Shown here: piece by piece, positions 1,595 to 15,423 of the stretch
Numbering within the stretch: position 1 is the first letter of the stretch
How the letters are laid out: each line of letters opens with the position of its first letter
Translations under genes and position numbers: made by a program
The notes under the pieces: generated by a model
Told to the model about the DNA's origin: nothing
Databases searched by the model: none
What the model saw: the letters and a program-made list of their open reading frames with translations, nothing else
NCBI GenBank assembly: GCA_963764725.1
Contig: CAVXTM010000018.1
Span: 608,001 to 672,000, forward strand
Source of the DNA: an uncultured Gammaproteobacteria bacterium
GTDB taxonomy: Bacteria; Pseudomonadota; Gammaproteobacteria; JACCXJ01
DNA length: 64,000 bases
Direction: 5' to 3'

Positions 1595-1870
1595 CTCGTT
1601 CCGCAACGCCCTCTCGCCAAGAGTCCTCAGGTAAGTTGCCGCAGTATAGTCGCAACAAAGCCTCTTCCCCAAGTAGACCGAGTCATCCCAGATCACCAGA
1701 CACTGTCTAGTAGCCGTCAACTTGCTCTCCAACTAGAAACAGTTCTTGGTGAGACCGCTCGCCAAATAGTCACGGTTCTTTGGTAGCCACCTAAACTGTA
1801 CCCACGTCATCGATGACTGGCGCTGGCGAAGACCGCATGCTCGACGAGCGAATGCGTGAACGATAGGCTT

Positions 1871-2040
1871 CCGTTCATCCAGATTTTGATAGACGGAAGC
1901 GCCCGAGGTAATATCTTGTCCGGAAAGAGCATCCTCGGTACGACCAGACCTATTGCGGGAAGAGGTAGACGGAATGGATGCTCTGTTCACATAACAGTCG
2001 GGCGTCCAAAAGATCTAGGAGGTTTTGCGTCGGAGTTGAT
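1871..2040 (+). repeat. attI-like element, apparently empty copy
   Basis: 1871-1997 matches 12280-12405 (about 14 differences in about 127 nt by manual alignment). It continues GTCGGGCGTCC...GAGGT...GTCGGAGTTGAT, resembling the 57-bp arm GTTCAGCGTCC...GAGGT...GTCGGTGTGAAT. Confidence 0.7.
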
Positions 2041-2097
2041 CTAAGCGAAGCTGTGCTCTGGTCCCTGTCGTCGTGCAATTCACCAAGGAGATACGTC

Positions 2098-2532
2098 ATG
2101 AGCAACGGAAAAACTTACACGGGTAGTTGCTTTTGTGGCGACGTGCAGTTCACCGTCAACGGTGAGCCGGTCGCGATGGGCTATTGCCATTGCGAGTCAT
2201 GTCGGCGCTGGTCGGCAGGGCCTGTCAACGCCTTCACTTTATGGAAACCCGAAGCGGTGCAGATCACGCGGGGAGCAGACAACATCGGCACTTACAACAA
2301 GACGCCGCACAGTTATCGCAAATGGTGCAAGACGTGTGGAGGCCACATCTTCACTGAGCATCCCGGCATGGGACTCACCGACGTGTATGCAGCGGTCATT
2401 CCGAACTTCCCGTACCACGCCGGCGTCCATGTCCACTATCAGGAGACGAAGCTGCGAATTAAGGACGGGTTGCCGAAGATGAAGGACGTCCCGAAGGAAA
2501 TGGGTGGCTCGGGCATCAGCGTAGCGGAATAA
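2098..2532 (+). CDS. GFA/CENP-V family protein
   Basis: GSCFCG, CHCESCRR and CKTCG zinc motifs; RBS AAGGAG before ATG 2098. Confidence 0.9.
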   Translation: MSNGKTYTGSCFCGDVQFTVNGEPVAMGYCHCESCRRWSAGPVNAFTLWKPEAVQITRGADNIGTYNKTPHSYRKWCKTCGGHIFTEHPGMGLTDVYAAVIPNFPYHAGVHVHYQETKLRIKDGLPKMKDVPKEMGGSGISVAE

Positions 2533-2746
2533 CAGGCCGAAACGACCCCGACGCGGCGCTCCTATGCGGAGATCCCCCAAGATCCCCCATCCCAGGAGGG
2601 CGCATCGCATCGTTGACAAGCCGTTGGTCCATCGATACATTTCCTCGCGCCGAAAAAAACCATCGATATCCCCATAACCAAGAGGGTCGCGTGTTCCAGG
2701 CGGCTATGGCCGAGCGAGGTTTCAAAGTTCGAGGGCCACGCAGCGC

Positions 2747-3283
2747 ATGACCGGGCATTCCCACAGATCCGCGCGTGCTTTCCTGCTCGCGGTTGCGTTC
2801 GCATTCGCCGGGCTGAACCCGGGCGCTTCCTGGGCTCAAGATGGCGGGGGCGGCGCCTTGGATGAGATCTTGTCCCGGTTCCAGGATCGGATCGCTGCGT
2901 GCACCGCCCGTTACGGATACAGCCGGGCGAAAGGGGATGTCCTCGGAGCCCGTGAGCTTGGAGAGAACGAGGTGCCCTGGAGGCACTGCGTCTACCGCGG
3001 CGTTCGAGAGGTGCTGATGCCGCAGGCGCGGGTGCCGCGGCTGTATCAGCAGGCGATCGAGGAAGACCAGGCCATGACGGCGCGCATCGCGAAGGGCGAG
3101 CTGACCCGCGCGGAGCGCCGCCAGCGCCTGGAAGACCTCGCGGAGAACATACGGCTGACGGAGCTTCTGAACCCACCGCATACCCGAGAGCAGAGCGCGG
3201 ACCGGGAGTTACTAGACCCGGTCAAGCTGGAGCACCTCAAGCAGATGTATCGCTATTCGGTGCTCGACTCACTCGGCCGCTGA
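2747..3283 (+). CDS. exported hypothetical protein
   Basis: Signal-peptide-like N-terminus (…ASWAQ), helical body, two Cys. Confidence 0.6.
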   Translation: MTGHSHRSARAFLLAVAFAFAGLNPGASWAQDGGGGALDEILSRFQDRIAACTARYGYSRAKGDVLGARELGENEVPWRHCVYRGVREVLMPQARVPRLYQQAIEEDQAMTARIAKGELTRAERRQRLEDLAENIRLTELLNPPHTREQSADRELLDPVKLEHLKQMYRYSVLDSLGR

Positions 3284-3345
3284 CCGCGATACGCCATCGG
3301 CGGCGTTCCGGCGCGGTTCCCGGATCTCACGATCGCCGGATTACG

Positions 3346-3597
3346 AACGCGGCCACGCCAGATCAGGCCGAGATACCCCAGCCCTCAGCCTCGGCGCGTA
3401 TCAGCTGGGCTCGGTTGCTCAAGCGTGTATTCGATATCGACCTGGAGCATTGCCCCAACTGCGGCGGCGCCTTAACGATCATCGCCGCCATCCTCGACCC
3501 CACCGTGATTACCCAGATCCTCGCGCATCTCGGCTTGTCCGCCCGAGCACCGCCGCGCGCACCCGCGCGCCGACGCGATCTTTTCGAAGCCGCCTAA
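3346..3597 (+). pseudogene. IS91/ISCR transposase C-terminal remnant
   Basis: ISWARLLKRVFDIDLEHCPNCGG...IIAAI...ILAHLGL...APPRAPAR is the typical IS91/ISCR C-terminus. Confidence 0.85.
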
Positions 3598-3793
3598 CCG
3601 ACAACGTTTCTTCCACCGCCCCGGATTCTCGTTCGGCCTCAATTCACGCCCTTCGCCCCTTCGACCGAAACCACCGCCTCCCGAGGCCATTTCACTGCCC
3701 CGACCATGCCTCAGCGCACAGTTTCTGACTCCCTGACTCACTATCCCGTGTGATTGAACACGCACACCCACCGCTATAAACTCTCACCAACCC

Positions 3794-3818
3794 AAAAAGG
3801 CGGTTTGAAAATACTATT
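3794..3818 (+). mobile_element. oriIS-like end of the IS91/ISCR element
   Basis: AAAAAGGCGGTTTGAAAATACTATT about 200 bp downstream of the transposase remnant, resembling ISCR oriIS (GCGTTTGAA.TTCCTATA). Confidence 0.7.
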
Positions 3819-3848
3819 CACCAGCAGAACACCCTGTGGAGGTTAGTA

Positions 3849-4310
3849 ATGTTACGCAATCTCGCATTCGTCGTCGGTTATGCCGTGATCCAGGTGCTTT
3901 CCACTACCGCCTCAGTTGCGGCAGCTGACTTCGGCACTGCAGAGGAAGCCAAAGCTATGCTTGAGAGAGCAGTGGCCGCAGTGAAAGAGGACAAGGCGAA
4001 GGCGCTTGATATGTTCAACAAGGCCGAAGGCGGCTTCAAGGATCGAGACCTTTATGTGTGGTGCGCTAACGCCTCGGACGGCATCATAACGGCGACACCT
4101 TACTGGAATAGGGGAAAACAGGTGAGAGACATTGAGGGCAAGCACGGTGCTCCGTTCGGTGAAACGATTATGCAGAATGCCACCGAGGGAACGATAAAAG
4201 AGACCACCTATTGGTGGCCGCGCCCTGGCACAGACAAGCCGCTGGAGAAGACTATCTTCTATACTAAGGTCAGTGACCAGATTTGCGCTGTCGGCTACTA
4301 CAAGGAATAA
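3849..4310 (+). CDS. stand-alone periplasmic Cache-domain protein
   Basis: GTAEEAKAMLERAVAAV...FKDRDLYV...YWWPRPG...K...VGYY; signal peptide; RBS GGAGG. Confidence 0.85.
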   Translation: MLRNLAFVVGYAVIQVLSTTASVAAADFGTAEEAKAMLERAVAAVKEDKAKALDMFNKAEGGFKDRDLYVWCANASDGIITATPYWNRGKQVRDIEGKHGAPFGETIMQNATEGTIKETTYWWPRPGTDKPLEKTIFYTKVSDQICAVGYYKE

Positions 4311-4523
4311 CTCGCCAAGCAATTATATCCGCTTATCTACGTCTGGCGTTAGCACGAACGCCGTCAGGCCGATCGTCCCGTTTCAGGGGACGAGTCCAAT
4401 CAGCACTGCACGGAATAACATTCGTGTCACAAGGGTATTGCAGTCCCTCGTCATGCCGCTCGCCGTGCGTTTGGGTTGACCCCATGGGCGCATGCCCCGC
4501 TTCCCGTTGCATTCTTTCTTTCA

Positions 4524-4553
4524 ATAATGGCAGCTGCCGGCCCAGAAGCGGAC
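4524..4553 (+). repeat. short recombination-site-like repeat
   Basis: ATAATGGCAGCTGCCGGCCCAGAAGCGGAC shares TGCCGGCC(C)AGAA with 12173-12184 and the AATG.C..CT..GG.C spacing with 11411. Confidence 0.5.
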
Positions 4554-4643
4554 GGTCACCCCTATCTGTGCCTTGACAGGTGCGCGCCACACCTATTGAA
4601 ATTCATACGCATTGCGGGTCGTACCCATGCGTGTAGTTTTGAA

Positions 4644-6969
4644 ATGGGTAAGAAGAGTCGTTTAAAAAAGACTCGCCGAGAGGCGAGAAAGCGTCTTCCG
4701 CTAGGACTTGAGCTGTCACAATTCCAGGATCCTTTCGCAGGAATTCCGGTTCAACTACCTCACGCAATGATTGACTGAGGTCGGACGAAAACAAGCGCAG
4801 GAATTTGTCACGACCACCGCTAAGATTCAGGACCTCATCGATGCCACCAACCCTCTGTGCCTGATGGCATCCATGGCCTTCTACGGGCTTATCGTAGGCA
4901 TTCGCGACGATGGATCGATCGTTTCGATCGTTGGGTCGAACAAACGGGAAATCCTTCCTGCGCACGTCGAATTAGCACAGGCTCTATGCCTTCGTGTGCC
5001 GGCGCATTCGCATTCGCACATGCCTGTCTTGGGCAAAAGTATGCAATCCGTGTTTGATACCGTCGGCGATTGGTCGGATCAATTCCACTGGAAGCGCCTT
5101 GTCCAACTTGACACCGCTCTGAGCGAAGCGGAGCGCGATCGCTTGCTAGTCCAAGAGCACATCCGTTTAGACACGCAGATTGTTCGAAACTGGGGCTACT
5201 ACGATCATGTCAAACGCATCGCACAGGAGATCATGGCGCCGCTCGATGCGCGCTTCGAGGCCCTCTACGGATTCAAGGCTACCGAACTGCTTGCGATGTT
5301 CGATCATCTCGTTCACGAATGTGAGATTCGACTCAACGCTCACTGGGAGCGCCTGCGCGGCATGATAAAAGCGACAACGCTTCGCCATGCGGTCGTCGCG
5401 TACTACACCGCGTTTCCCGACCTCAAGAATAACGTGCAGGATTTTCACGCGCACCTACGCGCTCGCCGTGTCAATCTCATGCAGGCCAAGACGATGATGT
5501 TATCCCACTCGGATTTGCGGCTGCCCGCGATCTTCACTTTTTCACCTGCACATATCGCGGCAGCGATTGGACGAACGGCAGACACGGTTATCAGAGCGCT
5601 TGGAAAACTCAGCCTTAGCTTTGGTGATTTGCAGGGCACCAACGTCGAGCACTTCTTCATGAACAATCCGGTTTGGACAAAACCCGTAGTCAAGCTGGAG
5701 GACCGCTCCTATTTTTGCATCATGCCCCGATCGTTCTTTGCATTCCCGTTCGAAACGTTTACCACACTGGTTCGAGAAGACGAGGCGTTGCGCAAAGCGT
5801 ACGAAAATCGACGCTCGGACTATCTGGAGCAAACGAGCGCAAAGGTGTTTGAGGCCGCTTTCCCGGGCGCGAAGCTCATAAAGAACTTCAAAGGGTATAC
5901 GCCAGACAAAAAACAAATCGAAAGCGACCTCATCGTGCAGGTCGATTCTTTCTTGATCCTCATGGAAGCCAAATCCGGGCGCATTTCACCAGCAGCTCGC
6001 CGCGGCGCTCCAGAGAGCTTGGGAGAGGATATCGATAAATTACTGATCGAACCGTCTCGTCAATCACAACGGCTCCAAAAGGCCATAGAGTCGGCCCAGA
6101 GAGGCGAGGCAGAAACGGAGGCTTTTGCTGAGGCGTTCCCCGTTAACCTTTCGACGATCCATCAAGTGCTGCGTTTGTCCGTGACACTCGAATATATGGG
6201 CGTTCTTCAAACCAACATTAATGGCCTAAGAACGGCGGGCTATGTACCGCCCGACATAAAGGTAGCGCCTGCACTGACTCTCGCAGATCTGGAAATTGTC
6301 TTTGATATACTAAGGACTTCACCCGAACGCATACATTATTTGATCCGACGCGGCGAGTGGGAAGGCAGCGCAGACTACACCGCGAATGAAATCGACCTGC
6401 TCGGAACGTACCTCAAGACTGGCCTCAACGTAGGCGATCTAGAGTTCGCGCACGCTCATCTCATGCTAGTTGGCCAATCGAAATCGATCGACGATTATTA
6501 CGAAGCTAGGCAGCTAGGTATCTCCAAAGAAAGACCACAGTACCAAGCAACGCCCTGGTGGCGCGATATGCTTCAGCGCCTTCGGACGAAGAGGCCGCAC
6601 CGCTGGATCGAGGCCGCAGCCGTCTTGCTGTGTGCCGGACTTGAACAGCAGATGGAAATCGAGAATCGGACAAAGGGCGTTATCGCCGATGTCAAGAAAC
6701 GCCGTGAGCGTGCGGCTTCGCGCAACGGATTGATATTCAGACCGGCCAAAGGCCGCAGCGAAGCAATCGCCGTGCTTGCATTAATGCGTACGGAGATACC
6801 GGATCGGCGTCAATTGATGGAGAATCTTACCGCACAGGCTTTCTCCGAAAATGCAGCCCTGCGCCAATGTGTGGCGATCACGCTCAACGTTGACGAACCG
6901 ACGTATCCGTACAGGTCGCTGGCATGGTTCACTAAGCCGGCAAAGAAAAACGTACCGACGTTGACATAA
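4644..6969 (+). CDS. large hypothetical protein with PD-(D/E)XK/NERD-like nuclease motif; probable frameshift near 4740-4770
   Basis: 732-aa ORF 4771-6969 with YLE...F...IESDLIVQVDSFLILMEAKSG. The upstream MGKKSRLKK... (ATG 4644) in another frame is the likely true N-terminus. Confidence 0.7.
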
Positions 6970-7100
6970 TGATCTCCGAAAAACCCAGCGACTGTGTAGC
7001 GGATGACAAGCTTACTTAGCCGATCCCCGGTTGGATTCTACGACGGGTTCTACCAAAAAGAGCAACCGCAACCACTTTTGCATCGTTCGGAACCCGGTTC

Positions 7101-7130
7101 GTGAAAGTCCGCTCAGGGTCGAACTGGGAC
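7101..7130 (+). repeat. short recombination-site-like repeat
   Basis: GTGAAAGTCCGCTCAGGGTC matches GTGAATGACTCCTCCGGGTC (11411-11430) at 15 of 20 positions. Confidence 0.55.
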
Positions 7131-7218
7131 ACTACCAAAAATATAAAAATTTTAGAGATTTCTGATTCTCCGAGGCCGGGGGGCTGAAGCGAGAACGGCG
7201 CACGACACTACTGAGGGG

Positions 7219-7575
7219 ATGGATACGAAGTGGTTCCGGCTCGACCTGCCGCCACAAGACCGGCTTATCGGAGCAGCCTTTGTGTTCGTGATCTTCGCCG
7301 TCGCTCACCGAGAGTTGACCGGGTTGCCGGTGGCCGGTGTGTCTGCGGCGAACCTAGCCCTGTTCTACATGGGATTCACTATTCCCGGTACTCGGTTCGC
7401 TCCTACCGCCGCCCTGCTCTGGCTCGCGGTGTATGCGGGCTGCCTCTGGGCTGGCGTACCGCACCGCGCTTTCAGCTTCACGGCGATGGCTGTTAGCCAC
7501 GTCGATCGTGGTGTGCGGCGCTCTGTTCTACGGCGCGTACTGTCTCGAGGGCGGGCAGTACTGCTCGGCTATCTC
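7219..7575 (+). pseudogene. degenerate membrane-protein fragment
   Basis: Hydrophobic helices in the first ~90 codons of ORF 7219-7764, then loss of protein-like character. Confidence 0.3.
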
Positions 7576-7719
7576 CCAGACAAAAAACAACCCGGAATTT
7601 CTATAAAACTTTTTAGGTTTGTGTTTCGGAGACGGGGGGCAGGGGCCCCTACAAAAGCGCATCGTCGAGGCATTGCAAACGCTGGCGTGAGCCATAGGCG
7701 CGCTATTGTCCGCGGACCG

Positions 7720-8589
7720 TTAGAGGTGCGCTTGCCGCATTTGCTCCACGGCCTGGGAAGCTGAGCGACGCACGTCATCGTCCTGATCGGACGCCAGCCC
7801 TTGCAGTACCGTCACCGTATTCGGATCGTCGAACTGGCTTTGCGACGCGATACGCGCTAAGGCCTCCGTAGCCAGGTAGCGCCCCGGCCCTTGCTGAGCC
7901 ATTTTGATGAGCATGTCGGTAGCGCGCTGATCATTGAGCATACCCAATTGATCGATGGCATACGCATACAACTGGCGATGGGGAGACTTCAGCACATCCA
8001 ACGCCCGCTGTAGCATCTCCTCGCGTGTTTGCGCTTCATCGGTCAACGCTGCCGGGTCGTCGCCGGAGTGGCCAATCGTCTCGCCGTTGGCGACCGAGAC
8101 CAATGATCGGAAATCGTCAAGCGTTTGCGGTCCCTTAGCGGGCGGCTCCGCGGTTGGAATGTCGTTGCGGCCGGACACCGCAATAGTGTCTGTGCCCTTG
8201 CGCTTTGGGGGTGTCGATAGCACCACTGCCGTACAACCTCGCGCCGAGCAATGCAGCGCGTAGGAGAATCCGCTGAGTACTATCTTTATGCCTTGCTCAA
8301 TGGAGCGACTGCGGATACTCGCCGAGATGGGTTTCTCGGCGATAGCCGGGTCGTTGAACAGCATCTGGACTCCGGCCTTCGTTCGCAGGGATTTGGCGAC
8401 AGCACCCAGCGGCGCTGTTCTAATCTCAGCATCGAGCAGCCACCCCTCATAGCGGATCTCGATAGCGCCGCCTGCGAGCTCTTCTGCAATCCGTCGATCC
8501 TGAGCGGCACTACCGTTCGCGGAGCAGGCTAACGCGCAACAAGCACTCAGCGCGGACCGCCACTTTCGCTTCGTAACGAAGATCTTCAT
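7720..8589 (-). CDS. exported protein with STN/secretin-N-like domain and C-terminal HEAT repeats
   Basis: Signal peptide; APLGAVAKSLRTKAGVQ...ISASI...IEQGIKIVL (STN-like); AIDQLG, ATEALARI and DQDDDVRRSASQA (HEAT). Confidence 0.7.
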   Translation of the reverse strand: MKIFVTKRKWRSALSACCALACSANGSAAQDRRIAEELAGGAIEIRYEGWLLDAEIRTAPLGAVAKSLRTKAGVQMLFNDPAIAEKPISASIRSRSIEQGIKIVLSGFSYALHCSARGCTAVVLSTPPKRKGTDTIAVSGRNDIPTAEPPAKGPQTLDDFRSLVSVANGETIGHSGDDPAALTDEAQTREEMLQRALDVLKSPHRQLYAYAIDQLGMLNDQRATDMLIKMAQQGPGRYLATEALARIASQSQFDDPNTVTVLQGLASDQDDDVRRSASQAVEQMRQAHL

Positions 8590-8621
8590 ACAGCTCGCGC
8601 AATTATAGCGGTTCAGGCAAA

Positions 8622-8652
8622 GCCGCCTCTCCGCGAGCGACGGAGAGGCGGC
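8622..8652 (-). terminator. probable intrinsic terminator after the 8685-9278 gene
   Basis: Perfect 12-bp stem GCCGCCTCTCCG/CGGAGAGGCGGC followed by TTT on the minus strand. Confidence 0.6.
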
Positions 8653-8684
8653 AACTGTACCAGTGTCGGATTAGTGTGCGGTCG

Positions 8685-9278
8685 TCACTTTGTCGACACT
8701 GGGTCAAAAATAATCAGAGGTGGGACGAGCCGATTATCCGTGCAGGTCACCGTCAGCGACGCATCGATTACCGTCAGATTCGGTGTGGCCGCGGCGGCTT
8801 TGCGCGCCAGAAAATATAGGGTGCGGCTTCCGAATATGAAGGGATTGGCCGCGACGGTGAAATAGCCCGGATCGGCATTGGCCGGCGACATCCAACCGCC
8901 CGTCGTGGTGATTTCCTTGATGCGGTTATCCCATATTCCCGCTTGGTTCCAGAACGTCAGGGTGCGTTCCTGCCCTTGGTCGAATATGGGATTAGGCGTG
9001 TTGCTCACCGTAAAGTAATAAACACTTTCGCCATTGGCAAGCGTGGGCCGTACCGCATCCGCGCTACCGGTCGCAGTACAGTAGCGCTGCGCTGGATTAG
9101 AGAAGTTGACCGATCGAAGGATGGTCCAGCCCGCGCCAGGGACTACGACATTGATATTGCTCGCACTACCGCCAACCGCATCGACGGCCAGCGCAGGGCT
9201 TGACACTATGGTAGCGCAAAGTGGCAGTGCGGCTACCAAGCAGGTACGGCCTGTCTTACTGAATAAACGAATTTTCAT
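8685..9278 (-). CDS. secreted beta-rich hypothetical protein
   Basis: RBS GGAGG, signal peptide ending PALA, Thr/Val/Gly-rich body, two Cys in the mature part. Confidence 0.7.
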   Translation of the reverse strand: MKIRLFSKTGRTCLVAALPLCATIVSSPALAVDAVGGSASNINVVVPGAGWTILRSVNFSNPAQRYCTATGSADAVRPTLANGESVYYFTVSNTPNPIFDQGQERTLTFWNQAGIWDNRIKEITTTGGWMSPANADPGYFTVAANPFIFGSRTLYFLARKAAAATPNLTVIDASLTVTCTDNRLVPPLIIFDPVSTK

Positions 9279-9625
9279 GGAAATTCCTCCATTGCTGTTG
9301 ATTGAGAACCAAGTGCTAACACAAACGAGGTATTAGCTGGTTTTAGGATAGGAGGATGGTGTTTCCGAAACAGTGGCATTCGCTACACCGACCATGTTAG
9401 ATTCGCCACTCGATCCGAGATGAAGTTAAATGACCACCGGCAAAGCGATGGCATACGTAAAGGTCAAACTTTTGGGAGTCCCGGGCTTACCGAATTTAAT
9501 TAGAGGACGTGCTCGACAAGGCCGTGGACACATTTCGGTCCAAAGGCTATAGAGCAAGCTCGACCCTCGATCTGGTTGACAACTGAGGATCCATCGCGGC
9601 AGCCTCTGTGACGCATTTGGCGACG

Positions 9626-10456
9626 CTAAAAGCGCTGCGGCAAGGGCCTTTGTAAAACAATACATTCTCTTTCACATTTGACGAAACCACCGCGCTTTAA
9701 TTCCATCATAAATTTAGCGACCGTTTCTCTAGCGCAACCGGCCAGCTCCGCCAAGTGCTGCTGGGTCCACGGCCCGCGAATGACGAGCTCACCGTCCACT
9801 TCGCACGCTAAGCGGTAGAGGAAGAAACGCAGGCGTCTATAGGCATCGACCGCGAGCATCGCGCGTGTTTCAGTGAGTTCGTTGACCAAGTGGGCCAGTT
9901 GACGCACCATCGCATGCCATAATGTCGGTCTGTCGGCGAGACATTCGAAAAACCGGCTCTTATGTAAGACCGCGAATTGCGAGTCCTCGATTGTGGCCAC
10001 GGAAGCCGTACGCGGTCCGCCCGTGAGCAATGAAAGCTCGCCGAAGAATTCGGCCGGCCCCTTGCGGCGAAGCAAGGTCCGAGAACCGTCATTCTCTAGG
10101 AAGATCTCGACCTGGCCCGCGAGGATGAAGAAAAAGCGATTATCTTCGTCGCCCTTCTCGAAAACATGACGAAACTTCTTATAGGACTTAACCGTGGCAT
10201 GGTCACGTAAGAATAAATGGTCTTCGGGTGACAACGCGGTCCGTAGGCCAGACCCCTGCGAGCCTGGGTCCTCGTCTATCGAAACTGCCGCTGAACCAGC
10301 CAAGTCTAAGATTGAGACGCGCCGCCTCAGGTCATTCACAGAATGAAGCAGTGTGGTCACGGTATTATTTTCACTACTGAGACTTTTTCCGAATAGCTCA
10401 GGCTCTACCGATGCTCTACCGGTCCTGTTCATACTTATATTACACGTCGATTCCAA
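9626..10456 (-). CDS. Crp/Fnr family transcriptional regulator (start uncertain)
   Basis: cNMP domain FFGELSLL...PRTASV and HTH WTQQHLAELAGCARETVAK. Confidence 0.9.
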   Translation of the reverse strand: MESTCNISMNRTGRASVEPELFGKSLSSENNTVTTLLHSVNDLRRRVSILDLAGSAAVSIDEDPGSQGSGLRTALSPEDHLFLRDHATVKSYKKFRHVFEKGDEDNRFFFILAGQVEIFLENDGSRTLLRRKGPAEFFGELSLLTGGPRTASVATIEDSQFAVLHKSRFFECLADRPTLWHAMVRQLAHLVNELTETRAMLAVDAYRRLRFFLYRLACEVDGELVIRGPWTQQHLAELAGCARETVAKFMMELKRGGFVKCERECIVLQRPLPQRF

Positions 10457-10463
10457 TATAGTT

Positions 10464-10479
10464 AGTGAGATATCTCACA
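10464..10479. promoter_or_regulatory. CRP-type operator
   Basis: AGTGA-GATATC-TCACA is one mismatch from TGTGA-N6-TCACA and lies directly upstream of the Crp-family gene. Confidence 0.55.
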
Positions 10480-10649
10480 TCCGGATTGTGACTTTTGACG
10501 ACAAGCGTGGTATTGCGAAGCGCCGTCGTCAGGGTCCCGCAGCAGCGCGTGGGGTCCCGCGCCCGCGCAGTCGCTATTAAGCGTAAAGCCGACCTTGATG
10601 CCGCGGGCCATTGCCGCGTGGATGAAGGCATCCGTCAAAAGCTGGAGCA

Positions 10650-11012
10650 AAGAGTTGCCTTCGGCCGTGGCCTGTTTTGAGGATGATTTCGCTTATCGCC
10701 CATCTGCGGCTCCCGATCGCACACCGGCGGGTGACGCGAACAACAAATCTATTAGAGCGCTTGTTCCTTGAAGAACGCCGGCGAACAAAAACCATTCCTC
10801 ATGCGTTCGGTAAACGCGCCGTCTTGAAACTTATGTTCGCCGCTATCCTACGGGCTTCCCAACCCTGGCTCAGGATCGGTATGAACGACTTCGAACGGCG
10901 GCAGCTTCAGGCACTGCGCCAGGAACTCGAACAACAGTTTCATGAACGAAATACTGTATCCATAAAACCCGCATCCCGCTCAGAAATTTACAGCAACCGG
11001 GGGGGACTTGGC
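10650..11012 (+). pseudogene. IS256 family transposase C-terminal remnant with right end
   Basis: HRRVTRTTNLLERLFLEERRRTK...LKLMFAA followed by TTTACAGCAACCGGGGGGACTTGGC. Confidence 0.8.
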
Positions 11013-11330
11013 CTGACAGTCGCCGGCTTAACTAGCGTCAATTCCTCGCGCCAGCCTGGCCAGATCCGAGAGACCCAGGCCCTGAGAAAGCGGTCCATAC
11101 GGCGAAGCTTCGGCCGGGGGTTGACGGCGCTGATACACGTTAAGCTGGTGCCGAAGCATTGTGTTCTCCATCTGTAGTGCTGCGCGAGAGCGAAAGAAGG
11201 TGCACACAAGGGTAGACATCATGGAACACGCGAGGGTGTCGAGGGTTCCCTGTCACCCTACATCCAAATGCTTTCCCCAAGCTAGATCTGCAGCCTTTCA
11301 ACTACATATGGATTTTCGGGAAGACAGGTG
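11013..11330 (-). pseudogene. integrase-core (DDE) IS transposase N-terminal remnant with left end
   Basis: FRSRAALQMENTMLRHQLNV / LRRMDRF..WVSRIWPGWREELTLVKPATV; the end-like ACCTGTCTTCCCGAAAA abuts a truncated attC. Confidence 0.7.
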
Positions 11331-11380
11331 TTCTTGCTTGCCGGCAACGTGCCCGCGCGCACCGACGCTTTTCGTTCAGC
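11331..11380 (+). other. right half of a truncated attC site
   Basis: ...CCCGCGCGCACCGACGCTTTTC-GTTCAGC; the left half was apparently removed at the adjacent IS end. Confidence 0.5.
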
Positions 11381-11430
11381 GTCCGCTTTGAGGTGAATCA
11401 CGATGTCGGTGTGAATGACTCCTCCGGGTC
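11374..11430 (+). repeat. 57-bp conserved right arm, copy A
   Basis: GTTCAGCGTCCGCTTTGAGGTGAATCACGATGTCGGTGTGAATGACTCCTCCGGGTC is identical to 15109-15165 and has 2 substitutions versus 13939-13995. Confidence 0.95.
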
Positions 11431-11497
11431 AACAAGCGTCCCATATTTGTGATGAGCCAGACTTGTGCTTCCCCACTGAGAATGGAGGAAACACACC

Positions 11498-12132
11498 ATG
11501 TACAGCAACGCAAATAGCGCCGACATCGGCGCCAACCACAATCCGTGGAACAAGGGCCGACTGATCGGGCCGAAACCCCCATTGAAACTCCGAGATCTGG
11601 GCGATTCGGATTCGACTGCAACTGGCCAAGCGCGCCAGAGACCTTGCCCTTTTCAACCTCTCCATCGACAGCAAGCTTCGGGGCTGTGATCTCGTCAAAC
11701 TCCAGGTACGCGATGTCGCGCATAGCGGCCGGGTCATTCCCCGGGCAACGGTCATGCAGCAGAAAACGGGGCAGCCCGTCAAGTTTGAATTGACCGAGCA
11801 AACGCGAGAAGCGGTCGAGGCCTGGATCGCCAAGGCGCAACTTTGCTCCAGTCAATTTCTATTTCCAAGCCGCATGACCCGCTCACCGCATATTTCGACC
11901 CGGCAGTATGCGCGGATCGTGAAATCGTGGGTCGCTCGCATCGGATTGAACCCGGGAGATTACGGAACCCACTCGATGCGCCGCACCAAGGCGACACTGA
12001 TTCTACCGGCGAACGAAAAACCTCCGAGCGGTGCAGCTATTGCTCGGGCACACCAAGCTGGAAAGCACGGTCAGATACCTCGGCATCGAGGTCGATGATG
12101 CCTTAGAGATGTCGGAGCAAACCGAAGTCTGA
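11498..12132 (+). pseudogene. small tyrosine recombinase (PWNKG type); two apparent frameshifts (~11590, ~12002)
   Basis: Joined frames read NPWNKGRLIGPKPPLK..IWAIRIRL..DLALFNLSIDSKLRGCDLV..QQKTG..YGTHSMRRTKATLIYRRTKNLRAVQLLLGHTKLESTVRYLG. All catalytic R-K-H-R-H-Y residues are present; RBS GGAGG. Confidence 0.9.
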
Positions 12133-12143
12133 AACCATTTAAA

Positions 12144-12190
12144 ACCGGCAGCGTCCGCCCAGTGCGGTCGCTTGCCGGCCAGAAACAGTC
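12144..12190 (+). repeat. imperfect hairpin and site-like repeat downstream of the recombinase
   Basis: CCGGCAGCGTCCGC...GCGGTCGCTTGCCGG inverted repeat, overlapping TGCCGGCCAGAAACAGTC. Confidence 0.55.
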
Positions 12191-12279
12191 AGTGGCGCGT
12201 AGCCCAAGACACCGCGGTAGCGGACACTCGGGGAAGCACCGTGCTCGCCCGCGAAGTGCAGCTGGCCGAGCTGCCGGAC

Positions 12280-12411
12280 CCGTTCATCCAGATTTGGATA
12301 GACGGAAGCGTCAGAGGTAGTATGTTGTTCGGAAAAGGCTTCCTGGCTACGACCAGACCTATTGCGGGAAGAGATAGACGGAATGATGTTCTGTTCACAT
12401 AACAGTTAGAT
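12280..12411 (+). other. attI-like site heading a cassette array (no intI in the window)
   Basis: Hairpin CCGTTCATCCAGATTTGGATAGACGG, direct repeat TAGACGGAA twice, ending ACATAACA-GTTAGAT (GTTRRRY) 10 nt before the first cassette ORF. Confidence 0.7.
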
Positions 12412-12420
12412 TCCTCGACC

Positions 12421-12912
12421 ATGCCAACGGTCCATCCATTGCGTGCGGTTTGGCTTCTCATTGCGAGACCTCGTCGGTTTGTCGAACTGGCGACTCGCCA
12501 TGACATCGACCAGGAGTTCCAACGGAACCCCCAACTGCTTGCTGCTTACCCCTCCCGCGAGCTCCCACCCGAAAGGGTGAAGAATTTCGAGGACAACGCA
12601 CAAGATCGTACCCGGAAGATGCGGAGTGCATTTGGGTCTGCGCTGTGGTCAACGGGTACCGCCGTTCTGCTTGGTTACCTTGTGGGGTGGGGCGTCGCCG
12701 CATACTGTGGGAAACCACCTCTCTGGGTGGTCTCTGTTCTCGCGGTCTCCGGGGCGGCCGTCATTCTCGTCGCCACGCTCGCGCTTCTGGGCTGGGAAAT
12801 CCAATCGTACAAGGGCGTCTCCCTGCCGGAGAAGGTCAACCGATGGTTGTTTCGCTCGCAGTATTGGTTCGGCACCTTTCTCATTGTGCTTTCTCTATCG
12901 TGCAGCACCTGA
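12421..12912 (+). CDS. gene cassette 1: multi-pass membrane protein of unknown function
   Basis: Lies between the GTTAGAT core and an attC; about three C-terminal hydrophobic segments. Confidence 0.75.
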   Translation: MPTVHPLRAVWLLIARPRRFVELATRHDIDQEFQRNPQLLAAYPSRELPPERVKNFEDNAQDRTRKMRSAFGSALWSTGTAVLLGYLVGWGVAAYCGKPPLWVVSVLAVSGAAVILVATLALLGWEIQSYKGVSLPEKVNRWLFRSQYWFGTFLIVLSLSCST

Positions 12913-12919
12913 TGAGCGA

Positions 12920-13009
12920 AGCTAATTTTTGCGTGCAGCGGACGCGCCGGAAGCAGCGTTCTTCTTTGCCAGCAAAGTGCCGGCGCGCCGCTGACGCAAT
13001 TCGTTAGCC
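12920..13009 (+). other. attC site 1
   Basis: AGCTAAT...TGCGT[G]CAGCGG[A]CGCGCCGG pairs with CCGGCGCGCCGCTGACGCA...GTTAGCC, giving two extrahelical bases; R'' is degenerate. Confidence 0.85.
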
Positions 13010-13030
13010 CTGATATCTCGAAAGTGTGGA

Positions 13031-13879
13031 ATGCCTATGAGCGAAGTCGAGGATCGCTACAAGACGATTTGCACCGATTTCGACACGCTCGTCACCTACG
13101 GGATTCGAGTATCTACATCGCTCGGAGGAAAAAACGCTCCGCACGATCGCGAATACTACGCTGATCGGATCTTTAGCAAGCTGCTTTGCCATGCAATCAC
13201 GCTCAAGCATATTGTCCCAACGGGATTGTCCCCCGTGGCTGCCGGCTACTCCGAACTTTGGGATGTCTCATCGGCGTGCGCTGTCTCGCGAGCGTTGCTT
13301 GAAGCATATGACACGCTGGCCTACGTCGCCATTGAGGATGTTCAGGTTGGCGAACGAGAGTTCCGAATCTTATTGTGGAAGTTGCATTCCGCAGAACGGA
13401 GACAGAAGATGCTTAGGCTCATTGGCTCGACCGCGCCGGCCGTCTTGGAAGTGGACAAGAACGTCACTGAGTTGCGCCAGAAACTAACCACGCATGATTT
13501 CTTCGACAGCGTAGAAGCAGGGCTGAAAAGAAAGGCTCGGAATGGCAACGTTCCACCTTTTCACCTGAGTCAGGCGGGGCGGAACAAGCGTGCCGGTGTG
13601 AATCACGAGTACTACAACGCCGCCCTAATGTTTCTTTCATCCTATGTCCACACCCACCCGTTTTCCGTTCACCAACTAATGGAATTTCGGGCCGGTGACC
13701 CGGAGAGTTTGAGGCTAATGTCCTCGCCTGTTCAATACGCGTCGGGCTTTCTCGCCAAAGGAATCGAGGGTACGAGTCTAGTCTTCGGGGATATTGTGCC
13801 GCTCCCATCGGAGGCAGAATCCGAAATCCAGAGCACTTGGATCGAGATTATTAGAAATGGCTTCGCAAGAGTCGGCTAA
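13031..13879 (+). CDS. gene cassette 2: DUF5677-like (HEPN-related) protein
   Basis: SRALLEAY and Y...LSSYVHTHP motifs; the stop TAA lies inside GGCTAAC. Confidence 0.7.
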   Translation: MPMSEVEDRYKTICTDFDTLVTYGIRVSTSLGGKNAPHDREYYADRIFSKLLCHAITLKHIVPTGLSPVAAGYSELWDVSSACAVSRALLEAYDTLAYVAIEDVQVGEREFRILLWKLHSAERRQKMLRLIGSTAPAVLEVDKNVTELRQKLTTHDFFDSVEAGLKRKARNGNVPPFHLSQAGRNKRAGVNHEYYNAALMFLSSYVHTHPFSVHQLMEFRAGDPESLRLMSSPVQYASGFLAKGIEGTSLVFGDIVPLPSEAESEIQSTWIEIIRNGFARVG

Positions 13880-13945
13880 CCCATCAATCAACCGGACCGC
13901 CAAAAAGCTACGCTTCTTGTCGTCCGGTTATCTCAAGCGTTCAGC
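13874..13945 (+). other. attC site 2
   Basis: GGCTAAC-CCATCAATCAACCGGAC...GTCCGGTTATCTCAAGC-GTTCAGC, 72 bp; R'' is complementary to the cassette's own GTTAGCC core. Confidence 0.9.
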
Positions 13946-13995
13946 GTCCGCTTTGAGGTGAATCACGATGTTGGAGTGAATGACTCCTCCGGGTC
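13939..13995 (+). repeat. 57-bp conserved right arm, copy B
   Basis: Two substitutions versus copies A and C; starts at the attC2 GTT. Confidence 0.95.
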
Positions 13996-14061
13996 GGCAA
14001 GCGCCTCATATTGTGACGAGCCAGACTTGTGTTTCCCCACTGAGTATGGAGAAAACACACC

Positions 14062-14210
14062 ATGTACAGCAACGCAAATAGCACAGATGTCCAGTGCCAT
14101 TCACAATCCGTGGAACAAAGGCCGACTGATCGGACCGAAGCCCCCATTGAAACCGCAAGAGATCTGTGCGATTCGGATCCGACTGCAACTGGCCAAGCGC
14201 GCCAGAGACC
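14062..14210 (+). pseudogene. second PWNKG tyrosine recombinase, 5' fragment
   Basis: HNPWNKGRLIGPKPPLKPQEICAIRIRLQLAKRARD, then an abrupt break; the upstream DNA is similar to 11431-11497. Confidence 0.85.
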
Positions 14211-14225
14211 GTTTATTTACTCTAT

Positions 14226-14253
14226 GGGCCGCAGCTCACCGGGAGCGTTATGT
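14226..14253 (+). other. right half of a truncated attC site
   Basis: GGCCGCAGCTCACCGGGAGC-GTTATGT, 31 nt before the next ATG. Confidence 0.65.
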
Positions 14254-14283
14254 GGCAAAACCTTCCCGAAGGAGGCTAGGAGA

Positions 14284-15099
14284 ATGATTCCGAACAGCGG
14301 CGCCATCAACTGGGTGATTGACCCTGTCACGCGGGCGATTGGATACGTCCTCGAAGAAACGAAGATTGTAGGTACTCTCCACAGGAGCCTTGCCGTGTTG
14401 GAAGGTCATGAGATTTTCCTGCGGTTGGCTCGAGAGAAGTTCGTGGAGGCAGAAACGAAAGAGGGCCTACCTTACATCGACCAGCTTATCGCGCAGGCAC
14501 CAGGTTTAAGTAAGGAAGCTGCCGAACTCCGGCAGAACGACTACTCGGTGGTGAATAGCCACAGTCTCATCGGAATGTGGGGTGCCGTAGAGATCGCGGT
14601 TGAGGATACGGTAGTGCTCGTACTCTCCAAGGAAACCTCCGCCCTCGGCGTGGTAGCCAATGCTGGTGTCAAGATAGCGAAGTTCGAGGGGCCAGTATCG
14701 GAAGACGATGCCCGAATTCTATTCTCTCGGCTTGAGCGGAAGCTTCGGGAAAGCCTAAAAGGAAAAGTGGGAGAGTTCTATGTCCAACTCCTCGGTCTCT
14801 TTGGAGTAAAGTTTAGCTGCAGCCGCCACACCCTTTCCAAACTGGATGAAATAAATTGCGTGAGGAACTGCATCCTGCACCGCGGCGGTATCATCGACGA
14901 TCGAGCAGCCCAGATTGACGGATTAAGGCCATTTCTGGGGACGCAGTTCCCGACCACGCAAGCTCGTTACCTTGAATACTATGATGCAATCGGTGATTTT
15001 TTGAAGGAGATGCTGAACGCGGTACTTGCAAGCAGCTACATTCAAACCGTGCCGAGCGGGACAAGTGGTTCTTCCAATGCCACATTACGCACGCCCTGA
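14284..15099 (+). CDS. gene cassette 3: HEPN-like protein
   Basis: RBS AGGAG; LDEINCVRNCILHRGG (R-x4-H) and an upstream W..VE..VED helix. Confidence 0.7.
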   Translation: MIPNSGAINWVIDPVTRAIGYVLEETKIVGTLHRSLAVLEGHEIFLRLAREKFVEAETKEGLPYIDQLIAQAPGLSKEAAELRQNDYSVVNSHSLIGMWGAVEIAVEDTVVLVLSKETSALGVVANAGVKIAKFEGPVSEDDARILFSRLERKLRESLKGKVGEFYVQLLGLFGVKFSCSRHTLSKLDEINCVRNCILHRGGIIDDRAAQIDGLRPFLGTQFPTTQARYLEYYDAIGDFLKEMLNAVLASSYIQTVPSGTSGSSNATLRTP

Positions 15100-15115
15100 G
15101 CTGGGCACGTTCAGC
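15079..15115 (+). other. decayed (internally deleted) attC site 3
   Basis: GCCACATTAC is one base from GCCACATAAC, the complement of the cassette start GTTATGTGGC; then CCCTGAGCTGGGCAC-GTTCAGC. Confidence 0.65.
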
Positions 15116-15165
15116 GTCCGCTTTGAGGTGAATCACGATGTCGGTGTGAATGACTCCTCCGGGTC
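15109..15165 (+). repeat. 57-bp conserved right arm, copy C
   Basis: Identical to copy A; diverges immediately after GGGTC and is not followed by a recombinase gene. Confidence 0.95.
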
Positions 15166-15423
15166 GTTACTGCGCCCATCGGGAAAGCACCGCCTGGGGT
15201 GAAGAAGCTTACGACGGACAGCAACAATTCCGAATCCGAAGCGGGCCACACCCTTGACCACTGCTGAACAGAAGGAAATCTGGCGATCCTAATTCGCCTA
15301 CAGCCCGCTCAGCGGACCCGAGATCTTCCTCTGTTCAATCGTGCTACCGACATTACGCGGCCCAGCGAGAGATTTGAGTTTCCTAGAAGCACGAGTAACA
15401 TATGATGCAAAGGAGCCTATTCG

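What the first reader, a model, noticed from the sequence alone, without database searches (positions are those of the whole stretch)
1871..15165. Integrase-less 'mini-attI' platform seen both empty and cassette-loaded, next to a non-IntI tyrosine recombinase
Seen in the sequence: (i) A ~127-bp left arm occurs at 1871 and 12280, with a hairpin, TAGACGGAA twice, and the end ACATAACA. (ii) A 57-bp right arm occurs at 11374, 13939 and 15109, each starting exactly at the GTT of an attC or attC remnant. (iii) At 12280-13995 the two arms enclose two complete cassettes. (iv) At 1871-2040 the left arm runs straight into a diverged right-arm-like sequence (GTCGGGCGTCC versus GTTCAGCGTCC, plus GAGGT and GTCGGAGTTGAT), with the GTT apparently mutated to GTC. 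(v) Two right arms are followed by a PWNKG-type tyrosine recombinase gene. Established: integron cassettes insert at G|TT of attI. Inference: this is a compact (~170-185 bp), multicopy, intI-free capture platform that loads different cassettes in each copy, using IntI in trans or the adjacent recombinase, and is itself moved as a unit. This is the best candidate for an undescribed system in the window.
Basis: partly seen in the sequence, partly recalled or inferred. Interest (0 to 1): 0.9.

Follow-up and report, generated by a model that had tools for sequence, protein, structure and literature searches.

The report
Orphan integron attI sites, integrase lost
The repeated "arms" are leftovers of a decayed chromosomal integron: an attachment site (attI) that has lost its integrase gene, plus the start of one common gene cassette, which is an ordinary kind of integron decay and not a new capture system.

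Summary
The repeats are real. The left arm (1871-1997, 12280-12406) has 7 copies in this genome. It always ends at ...ACATAACA|GTT and is then followed by unrelated, cassette-like sequence. In three other loci the start of an integron-integrase gene lies 57 bp to its left, on the opposite strand. It is therefore the attI and promoter region of an integron whose intI has been deleted; intact adjacent intI was found in 0 of 14 loci.

The right arm is the 5' leader of one cassette, always starting at the G|TT of a preceding attC. That cassette carries a small Xer-like tyrosine recombinase gene. The gene has two frameshifts at 11498-12132 and is truncated at 13939-14210, and only 57 bp of the leader remain at 15109.

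The "empty" copy is not empty. Sequence 1997-2040 resembles the right arm no more than chance, and it leads into a GFA-family ORF with an attC-like hairpin.

Right-arm-to-left-arm units (11374-12406 here, and a 211-bp mini version elsewhere) match the known "delta-attI-type cassette" or tandem-integron pattern.

Verdict: a decayed, locally duplicated integron (a CALIN that keeps its attI). It is a new member of a known kind, of modest interest.

The parts
2..1732 (-). TIR + STAND/NACHT-like NTPase gene that occupies the place where intI would lie (a neighbour, not part of the integron)
   Evidence: Pfam TIR_2 3e-24, NPHP3_N 2e-23, AAA_16; weak ThsB/Avs-like PADLOC and NCBIfam matches
1829..1870 (+). 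Remnant of the intI-attI intergenic region. It is homologous to C9:722-763, which lies between the intI start codon (C9:706) and the left arm
   Evidence: C9 722-759 matches C18 609829-609868 at 92.5%
1871..1996 (+). Left arm A: orphan attI region. Crossover triplet at 1997-1999 reads GTC
1886..1914 (+). Promoter-like site TTGATA-17-TAATAT pointing into the cassettes (candidate Pc)
   Evidence: 1 found against 0.2 expected; the same place in copy B does not pass
1997..2629 (+). First cassette-like unit after attI A: GFA-family ORF 2099-2532 and an attC-like hairpin 2527-2629 whose R'' overlaps the stop codon
   Evidence: hairpin z -1.5, so only moderate
11374..11497 (+). Right arm A: leader of the recombinase cassette, starting at G|TT after the 3' part of an attC
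11498..12132 (+). Small Xer-like tyrosine recombinase pseudogene (about 211 aa when intact; two frame changes)
   Evidence: (P0001 211 aa, 96% identical to the middle 139 aa)
12141..12183 (+). Imperfect palindrome just after the recombinase stop codon. Its 3' arm plus ...CCGGCCAG is conserved behind homologues elsewhere
12280..12404 (+). Left arm B: attI-derived sequence inside the array. Crossover GTT at 12405-12407
   Evidence: a contig of run X4 has 159 more bases between 12276 and 12280
12406..13003 (+). Cassette 1 (ORF 12421-12912, 163 aa, no family; attC 12920-13009)
   Evidence: z -3.8
13004..13939 (+). Cassette 2 (ORF 13031-13879, 282 aa, weak DUF5677; attC 13874-13945)
   Evidence: z -4.1
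13939..14210 (+). Right arm B: same cassette leader plus the first ~50 codons of the recombinase, then an unrelated 898-bp segment (14211-15108)
   Evidence: the junctions are bridged by contigs of runs X2, X4 and X5
15109..15166 (+). Right arm C: first 57-58 bp of the same leader only, with weak similarity to about position 72
15258..15343 (+). attC-like palindrome. Its R'' GCTGAAC is the exact complement of the right-arm start GTTCAGC, so it is the likely original attC of the leader's cassette
   Evidence: z -4.0

Best explanation
This is a decayed and locally duplicated chromosomal integron.

The left arm. It is the attI recombination site of one integron lineage, together with the short promoter-bearing stretch between attI and intI. 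Where the neighbourhood is preserved, the integrase gene starts 57 bp to the left on the opposite strand. In the window, and at every other place found, that gene has been removed or cut, leaving orphan attI sites that head short cassette arrays. These are clusters of attC sites without an integrase (CALIN) that still keep their attI.

The right arm. It is the first 58-125 bp of one cassette, whose leader is followed by a small Xer-like tyrosine recombinase gene that is dead here. This cassette sat next to attI in the ancestor. Later cassettes were inserted between them at G|TT by ordinary attI x attC recombination. The two arms therefore flank variable cassettes in the way the 5' and 3' conserved segments flank class 1 arrays.

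How the copies arose. The unit was then duplicated in tandem and dispersed, and deletions trimmed it. This produced right-arm-to-left-arm units (11374-12406 here; a 211-bp ORF-less version at C9:1876-2083 and on C5). Those units have the architecture of delta-attI-type cassettes.

Shown: the sequence relationships, junction positions, intI remnants and broken genes.
Inferred: that an integron integrase acting from elsewhere in the genome made the junctions, and that the sites are now mostly or wholly inactive.
For: 1. The right end of the left arm is a recombination junction. In 12 aligned copies homology stops just after ACATAA(C/T)AG. 10 of 12 read GTTAG or GTTAT there. 10 different sequences follow.
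2. ORF plus attC-like hairpin follows 4 of 6 own copies examined.
3. intI linkage. TIGR02249 matches C9:425-670(-) (model positions 1-82). The ORF starts at C9:706 and breaks off after about 85 aa. The same arrangement is in metagenome locus L131, 91% identical over 485 bp, where intI is cut near aa 125 beside an IS91-like transposase ORF. About 10 intI codons remain in G007:C381. Window copy A keeps 42 bp of that intergenic stretch.
4. The arm does not fold like an attC (z -1.1 to -2.3, no end-to-end stem).
5. Right arms start at the G|TT of attC-like ends in 6 of 8 own copies. W15109 has no attC-like end and the C5 copy lacks the start. They are cut at different right ends.
6. The order left arm, then cassette(s), then right arm occurs at 12280-13995, at C9:764-1972 and at G007:C168 984-1777.
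7. Several intI genes exist elsewhere in the genome, one of them intact (C15, 496 bits). None is on the window's contig.
8. Published precedent. Delta-attI-type cassettes with variable-length attI remnants (8 to 238 nt before the crossover) and attI1-gene-attI1 units are described in class 1 and 2 integrons and recombine with IntI1 (PMC12901181: abstract, Introduction and the section on their identification read). CALINs arising by intI loss or IS-mediated rearrangement are described in PMC4889954 (passages).
9. IS91-family and Mutator-family transposase fragments lie inside 3330-3600 and 10677-11177.
Against: - No intact cognate intI was found next to any homologous arm (0 of 14 loci). The closest intact integrase in 61 genomes is the genome's own C15 paralogue, at 72% identity to the 85-aa remnant. 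The attI assignment therefore rests on position and junction behaviour, not on a working pair.
- The attC-like hairpin after the GFA ORF is statistically weak (z -1.5, 19 of 200 shuffles).
- My crude scan found no attC within 2.6 kb after the C5 and C9:1970 copies.
- IntegronFinder and its attC model were not available.
- Whether the right-arm-to-left-arm units arose by integrase-mediated capture of attI into a cassette or by tandem duplication plus deletion is unresolved. The stretch before left arm B does not fold end to end as an attC.
- Three of the 14 loci come from unpublished genomes (G007, G009).
Confidence: 0.7

Rival explanations
1. The attI-plus-promoter module persists and multiplies without its own integrase, as a satellite platform. 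It still captures cassettes, using an integron integrase encoded elsewhere (for example the intact C15 paralogue), and it spreads within and between genomes.
For: - 0 of 14 loci keep an intact intI, yet the arm stays 87-98% identical across two genera and four metagenome contigs.
- Copies sharing the same truncated left end have different neighbours on both sides. This holds for 12280 against C18:505283, and for C9:1970 against C5. Junctions were therefore remade after the truncation, with no intI in cis.
- Copy A has a promoter-like site.
- Delta-attI units are recombination-proficient in class 1 systems (PMC12901181).
Against: - There is no empty allele.
- Left ends vary (nine classes).
- The intI remnants show an ordinary origin.
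- Two copies have a spoiled crossover triplet: GTC at 1997 and GAT in L166.
- attI sites are normally recognised only by their cognate integrase (stated in the abstract of PMC2095811, seen only in the listing), and the cognate one is dead here.
- The differing neighbours can also come from duplication of larger segments followed by deletion.
Confidence: 0.15
2. The arms are the ends or target of a mobile element moved by the small Xer-like recombinase, not by an integron integrase.
For: - The recombinase gene is followed by a conserved imperfect palindrome, and a similar half-site lies at leader positions 52-66.
- Several right-arm copies break close to that half-site, at position 58-72.
Against: - Of 80 homologous loci in other genomes, 0 carry the left arm, 0 carry leader positions 1-36, and only 5 share the gene-proximal leader.
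- The gene is broken in every copy here.
- Both arms end exactly at G|TT junctions with attC sites or cassette starts, which is the signature of an integron integrase.
Confidence: 0.05
3. Assembly artefact: the repeated arms were joined wrongly.
For: Right arms A and C share 57 identical bases, which is long enough to confuse a small-k assembly.
Against: - Contigs from three other runs of different studies span 14022/14053/14062 to 15145/15166. They thus bridge the 14210/14211 and 15108/15109 junctions (X2, X4, X5).
- The other copies differ by 2-13%.
- The same architectures recur on other contigs and in other genomes.
Confidence: 0.03

Closest known systems
CALIN (cluster of attC sites lacking an integron integrase; Cury et al. 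2016, PMC4889954, passages read)
   Same: Cassettes with attC sites and no intI nearby, in a genome that has intI elsewhere. IS fragments are present. intI pseudogene remnants lie beside some copies.
   Different: Here the attI and the promoter-side stretch survive and can be recognised, because they recur as a repeat. CALINs are defined without reference to attI, which IntegronFinder cannot search for in unknown classes.
Delta-attI-type gene cassettes and attI-gene-attI units of class 1 and class 2 mobile integrons (PMC12901181; abstract, Introduction and identification section read)
   Same: - attI-derived sequence of variable length, ending at the crossover, sits inside an array in place of an attC.
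- The architecture is attC-ORF-delta-attI (11374-12406).
- The published cases include a long remnant (238 nt before the crossover) and complete duplicated attI1.
   Different: - This is a chromosomal, environmental integron lineage with a new attI sequence.
- The remnant is about 113-125 bp.
- One version has no ORF (211 bp).
- Function is untested.
- An origin by tandem duplication plus deletion is equally possible.
5' and 3' conserved segments of class 1 integrons (recalled from general knowledge; no call)
   Same: One conserved sequence ends at the attI crossover, and another begins at the G|TT after the last cassette. Variable cassettes lie between them. The downstream segment is a degenerate former cassette, truncated to varying extents.
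   Different: There is no intI in the upstream segment and no transposition module. The copies lie in tandem and dispersed on a chromosome.
Complete integron
   Same: attI, probable Pc and attC-bearing cassettes are present, and the crossover is at G|TT.
   Different: The defining integrase gene is absent from the window's contig and broken beside every homologous arm.

Membership tests
Integron attI site | Lies next to intI, divergently oriented, upstream of the first cassette | tested here: inconclusive
   Met only through remnants. intI N-terminal fragments lie 57 bp from the arm at C9, in metagenome L131, and about 10 codons at G007:C381. No intact intI is adjacent in 0 of 14 loci, and none at all in the window.
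Integron attI site | Crossover at G|TT, followed by different cassettes that start with the GTTRRRY core | tested here: met
   In 12 aligned copies, 10 read GTTAG or GTTAT and 10 distinct sequences follow. ORF plus attC-like hairpin follows 4 of 6 own copies.
Integron attI site | Double-stranded site, not an attC-type folded hairpin | tested here: met
   No end-to-end stem; z -1.1 to -2.3.
Integron attI site | Bound and recombined by its integrase | not testable with these tools
   Needs a recombination assay. The direct repeats TAGACGGAA (x2) may correspond to accessory binding sites, by analogy with DR1/DR2 of attI1 (PMC12901181 Introduction). This is inference only.
Complete integron | Functional intI with the integron-specific domain, in cis | tested here: not met
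   TIGR02249 search of the whole genome gave 26 matches, none on contig C18.
CALIN | At least two attC sites with no intI nearby | tested here: met
   attC-type hairpins at 12920-13009 (z -3.8), 13874-13945 (z -4.1) and 15258-15343 (z -4.0), and a weaker one at 2527-2629. No intI on the contig. The attC calls come from folding and motif position, not from IntegronFinder.
Delta-attI-type gene cassette | Unit begins at the G|TT of an upstream attC, carries an ORF, and ends in attI-derived sequence at the crossover instead of an attC | tested here: met
   In 11374-12406 the leader starts at G|TT after the 3' part of an attC. It is followed by the recombinase pseudogene and then by 125 bp of attI ending at GTT 12405. 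A mini version lies at C9:1876-2083, where a full attC precedes it.
Delta-attI-type gene cassette | Excised and inserted as a unit by an integron integrase | not testable with these tools
   A contig of run X4 has 159 extra bases before the arm. This fits a deletion history at least as well as capture.
   The left end varies from -90 to +66, and the right-arm end from 58 to full length. The supposed empty allele is at chance similarity. No left|right junction was seen in the own genome, in 61 relatives, or in the 4 metagenome loci that hold the arm.

The most novel reading that the evidence does not exclude
The attI-plus-promoter module of this integron lineage survives and multiplies as an integrase-less satellite. 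It keeps acquiring or exchanging cassettes through integrases encoded elsewhere, possibly non-cognate paralogues. Cassette capture would then be uncoupled from carrying intI. The 211-bp right-arm/left-arm unit would be a mobile attI that can seed new capture sites inside other arrays.
Probability: 0.15. Interest if true: 0.6.

Novelty: new member of a known kind. Interest (0 to 1): 0.3.

Why it matters
Practical value. It gives a worked example of how an unknown attI can be recognised from sequence alone: a repeat whose one end is fixed at G|TT while everything beyond it changes. Current integron finders cannot locate attI outside the known classes.

Biological value. It extends attI remnants inside arrays, described so far for clinical class 1 and 2 integrons, to a chromosomal integron lineage of an environmental bacterium. 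It also shows a lineage in which every sampled copy has lost its integrase.

If the orphan sites were shown to be active in trans, that would bear on how integrase-less cassette clusters stay connected to the cassette pool. As it stands, this is ordinary integron decay.

Tried and rejected
- A home-made attC covariance model. Sixteen and then seven hand-picked attCs were aligned (A1, A2). RNAalifold found 0 consensus pairs because MAFFT does not align the stems, so no model was built.
- Rfam has no match in the window at gathering thresholds.
- An energy test for "junction GTT closes an attC-like hairpin" against 400 random GTT sites did not separate even the clear attCs from background. I dropped it, and the script also stopped on an indexing assertion.
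- Generic hairpin scans gave 185 and 117 candidates, mostly inside genes. I used only those at ORF ends.
- The stretch before left arm B (12141-12288) as an attC. A constrained fold pairs its ends, but the free fold does not (z -1.9). Inconclusive.
- A 14-mer shared between 12228-12241 and 15179-15192 (13 of 14 bases) hints that right arm C is a recombinase-less form of the same cassette. This is too short to rely on.
- The metagenome scan with a 16-mer gave mostly chance hits.
- Earlier findings of the scan: nothing for this genome.
- Read laying. No listed contig spans the whole stretch. Parts without cover say nothing. For the joint 12410 to 15108 in X2, what lies between is not known, so it cannot be counted as an empty or differently loaded allele. 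X1 record 7 reaches only 27 bases past 13939 and is not counted as bridging.
- Supplementary tables of PMC12901181 (the list of delta-attI cassettes) could not be seen.
- No structure or complex prediction was run; none was needed.

Full report
**1. What is in the sequence**

The repeats exist as described.
- The left arm at 1871-1997 and 12280-12406 is 89% identical over 127 bp.
- The right arm starts at GTT 11374, 13939 and 15109.
- Copies A and B of the right arm are not 57 bp long. They run through a 124-bp leader into an ORF, and they stay alike up to 14210.
- Between left arm B and right arm B lie two ORFs, each followed by a hairpin with attC architecture. One is 12920-13009 (z -3.8). 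The other is 13874-13945 (z -4.1); its R'' GGCTAAC overlaps the stop codon and its R' is GTTCAGC.

**2. The "empty" copy is not empty**

The sequence after left arm A (1997 onward) shares only the 6-mer GCGTCC with the right arm. 1894 of 2000 shuffles and 92% of 1798 genomic controls score at least as well.

It is the leader of a GFA-family ORF (2099-2532). The stop codon of that ORF lies in the 5' foot of an end-to-end AAC...GTT hairpin at 2527-2629. The hairpin's z-score is only -1.5, so I call the unit cassette-like, not proven. The crossover triplet there does read GTC.

**3. The left arm across the genome and beyond**

BLASTN of the arm against the laid assembly (19 contigs) finds 7 places:
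- the two in the window;
- C18:505283, C9:764, C9:1970, C5:115325;
- a half copy at C1:396474-396534.

A DNA search of 61 genomes (own plus 60 relatives) finds it in 3:
- the own genome;
- G009:C288;
- G007:C168 and G007:C381.

G007 and G009 are flagged unpublished. The three loci L010, L011 and L013 rest on them.

A metagenome scan with a 16-mer from the arm returned 80 loci, of which 4 hold the whole arm. These are L131, L135, L177 (identical to L135) and L166.

In an alignment of 12 copies, homology ends immediately after ACATAA(C/T)AG:
- 10 copies then read GTTAG or GTTAT;
- the window's copy A reads GTC, and L166 reads GAT;
- 10 different sequences follow.

After 4 of 6 own copies a crude scan finds an ORF followed by an AAC...GTT hairpin. 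The arm itself does not fold like an attC.

**4. Link to an integrase**

A whole-genome search with the integron-integrase model TIGR02249 gives 26 matches:
- an intact gene on C15 (496 bits);
- one with a stop codon on C7;
- partial ones on C13 and C12;
- a fragment at C9:425-670(-) covering model positions 1-82;
- none on the window's contig C18.

The C9 reading frame starts at C9:706, 57 bp left of the arm and on the opposite strand. It loses similarity after about 85 aa.

Metagenome locus L131 has the same arrangement, 91% identical over 485 bp. There the integrase frame ends near residue 125, beside an ORF with the look of an IS91-family transposase. That family name is my recognition of the translated sequence, not a profile hit.

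G007:C381 keeps about 10 codons and only the first 40 bp of the arm.

Window copy A keeps 42 bp of the intergenic stretch. Then, instead of intI, comes a TIR-STAND gene on the minus strand.

Taking C9 as reference, homology to the left stops at these positions:

| Locus | Left end of homology |
|---|---|
| G007:C381 | -90 |
| G009 | -55 |
| window copy A | -42 |
| G007:C168 | -22 |
| L135/L177 | -9 |
| L166 | -8 |
| window copy B and C18:505283 | about 0 |
| C9:1970 and C5 | +14 |
| C1 | +66 |

Across the 14 loci, an intact adjacent intI is seen in 0 and a remnant in 3.

The closest intact relative of the 85-aa remnant among 61 genomes is the genome's own C15 integrase, at 72% identity. Several of the compared genomes are flagged unpublished.

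**5. The right arm**

It occurs at 8 places in the genome.
- In 6 of them it starts at the G|TT of an attC-like 3' end. The exceptions are 15109, where nothing folds, and C5, where only positions 39-97 remain.
- Its right end differs from copy to copy:
  - about 58 (C12:112872 and G007:C168);
  - 64 (C12:313589);
  - about 72 at lower identity (15109);
  - 97 (C9, C5);
  - about 112-159 (C10);
  - 270 (13939);
  - complete (11374).

The gene behind it encodes a roughly 211-aa protein with only the catalytic domain of tyrosine recombinases.
- Pfam PF00589 matches.
- NCBIfam Xer and invertase models match far below their cut-offs.
- The window's full-length copy needs two frame changes, and no intact copy exists in the genome.

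The family is very common. All 8000 scored candidates were significant, and 486 relatives were found in the genome collection.

Among the 80 loci kept:
- 0 carry the left arm;
- 0 carry leader positions 1-36;
- 5 share the gene-proximal leader;
- 3 share the hairpin behind the gene;
- 1 has a true intI within 2.5 kb.

So the recombinase is a passenger with its own conserved flanks, not a partner of the arms.

Downstream of right arm C lies an attC-like palindrome (15258-15343, z -4.0). Its R'' GCTGAAC is the exact complement of the right-arm start. This fits a small original cassette whose leader is the right arm.

**6. How the pieces are arranged**

The order left arm, then cassette(s), then right arm occurs at three places:
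- 12280-13995 (two cassettes);
- C9:764-1972 (one cassette);
- G007:C168 984-1777 (one cassette).

The reverse order also occurs:
- 11374-12406 (right arm, recombinase, left arm);
- a 211-bp fusion of right-arm positions 1-97 to left-arm positions 14-127, at C9:1876-2083 and on C5.

The first order is what ordinary insertion of new cassettes at attI, in front of an older cassette, produces. The second has the published architecture attC-ORF-delta-attI.

PMC12901181 describes the precedent (abstract, Introduction and identification section read). It reports attI remnants of 8 to 238 nt before the crossover, and complete duplicated attI1, inside class 1 and 2 arrays, and shows that such units recombine with IntI1. 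I could not see its supplementary tables.

A contig of run X4 carries 159 more bases between 12276 and 12280. The sharp start of left arm B may therefore be a deletion scar of a tandem integron head, not a capture event. I cannot decide between the two.

**7. Assembly**

Contigs from three other runs of different studies cover 14053-15166 (X2), 14022-15145 (X4) and 14062-15166 (X5). They bridge the two oddest junctions, 14210/14211 and 15108/15109. The remaining junctions are not independently bridged by the listed pieces.

**8. Reading**

The evidence fits a decayed, duplicated chromosomal integron.
- Orphan attI sites, with a candidate Pc (TTGATA-17-TAATAT at 1886-1914 in copy A; not passing in copy B), head short arrays.
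- IS fragments lie inside the region (3330-3600 and 10677-11177).
- An old, now dead recombinase cassette marks the far side of later insertions.

This matches the CALIN concept and its proposed origins by intI loss and IS-mediated rearrangement (PMC4889954, passages).

What remains open, and is the only part with some novelty, is whether the orphan sites are still used in trans. Copies with the same truncated left end have different neighbours on both sides. This holds for 12280 against C18:505283, and for C9:1970 against C5. Junctions were therefore remade after intI was no longer in cis. Duplication of larger blocks followed by deletion could give the same picture.

**9. Verdict**

- Observation: partly confirmed.
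- Interpretation: partly supported. It is an attI without integrase, multicopy, with different cassettes. It is not a new system, it has no empty allele, and it is not a defined mobile unit.
- Novelty: a new member of known kinds (an attI-bearing CALIN, and delta-attI-type units).
- Interest: 0.3.

Noticed in passing
window 2-1732 (-): A TIR + STAND/NACHT-like NTPase gene (577 aa shown, running off the window). It has weak ThsB/Avs-like matches and sits exactly where the integrase gene would be, 139 bp from orphan attI copy A. It may be an anti-phage gene at an integron head.
   Followed up: partly
window 11432-12183, and loci L019-L098: The small (~211 aa) Xer-like recombinase family carries a conserved imperfect palindrome ending in ...CGCTT.CCGGCCAG just after its stop codon, and a similar half-site about 70-90 bp upstream of its start. 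Mean fold energy of the 67 nt behind the gene is -13.0 against -7.9 for shuffles, in 77 loci. It looks like a self-contained recombinase-plus-site module of unknown function, widespread in Beta- and Gammaproteobacteria records.
   Followed up: partly
window 3330-3600 (+) and 10677-11177 (+): The C-terminal end of an IS91-family-like transposase (recognised by eye from the translation) and a Mutator-family transposase fragment (Pfam 5e-05) lie inside the stretch between the two left arms.
   Followed up: no
G000 C10:132129-132926, C10:138177-138974, C7:104036-104833, C9:8485-9282, C15:170351-171124: A multicopy gene of about 334 aa for another tyrosine recombinase (about 30% identical to the C15 integron integrase). 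It recurs near integron loci together with an identical 49-nt hairpin (for example L102:5977-6025, L099:3270-3318). This may be an attC- or array-associated mobile element.
   Followed up: no
window 4771-6969 (+): A 732-aa ORF with no Pfam or PADLOC match lies in the region between the arrays.
   Followed up: no
window 14211-15108: An 898-bp segment with an ORF of no known family is fused in frame behind the first ~50 codons of the recombinase (ORF 14062-15099). It is followed directly by right arm C, without an attC. The same arrangement is present in contigs of three other runs.
   Followed up: partly
G000 C15:164702-165643, C7:99992-100918, C13:52921-53691, C12:400958-401382: The genome holds at least four further integron-integrase loci: one intact, one with a stop codon, and two partial. 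In the relatives' family, 13 of 14 genomes match the integrase fragment, several of them at multiple places. This lineage is unusually rich in integrons.
   Followed up: partly
window 15977-17056 (-): An APH-family phosphotransferase gene (Pfam 8e-33) lies just beyond the last right arm, on the opposite strand. It probably marks the end of the array.
   Followed up: no
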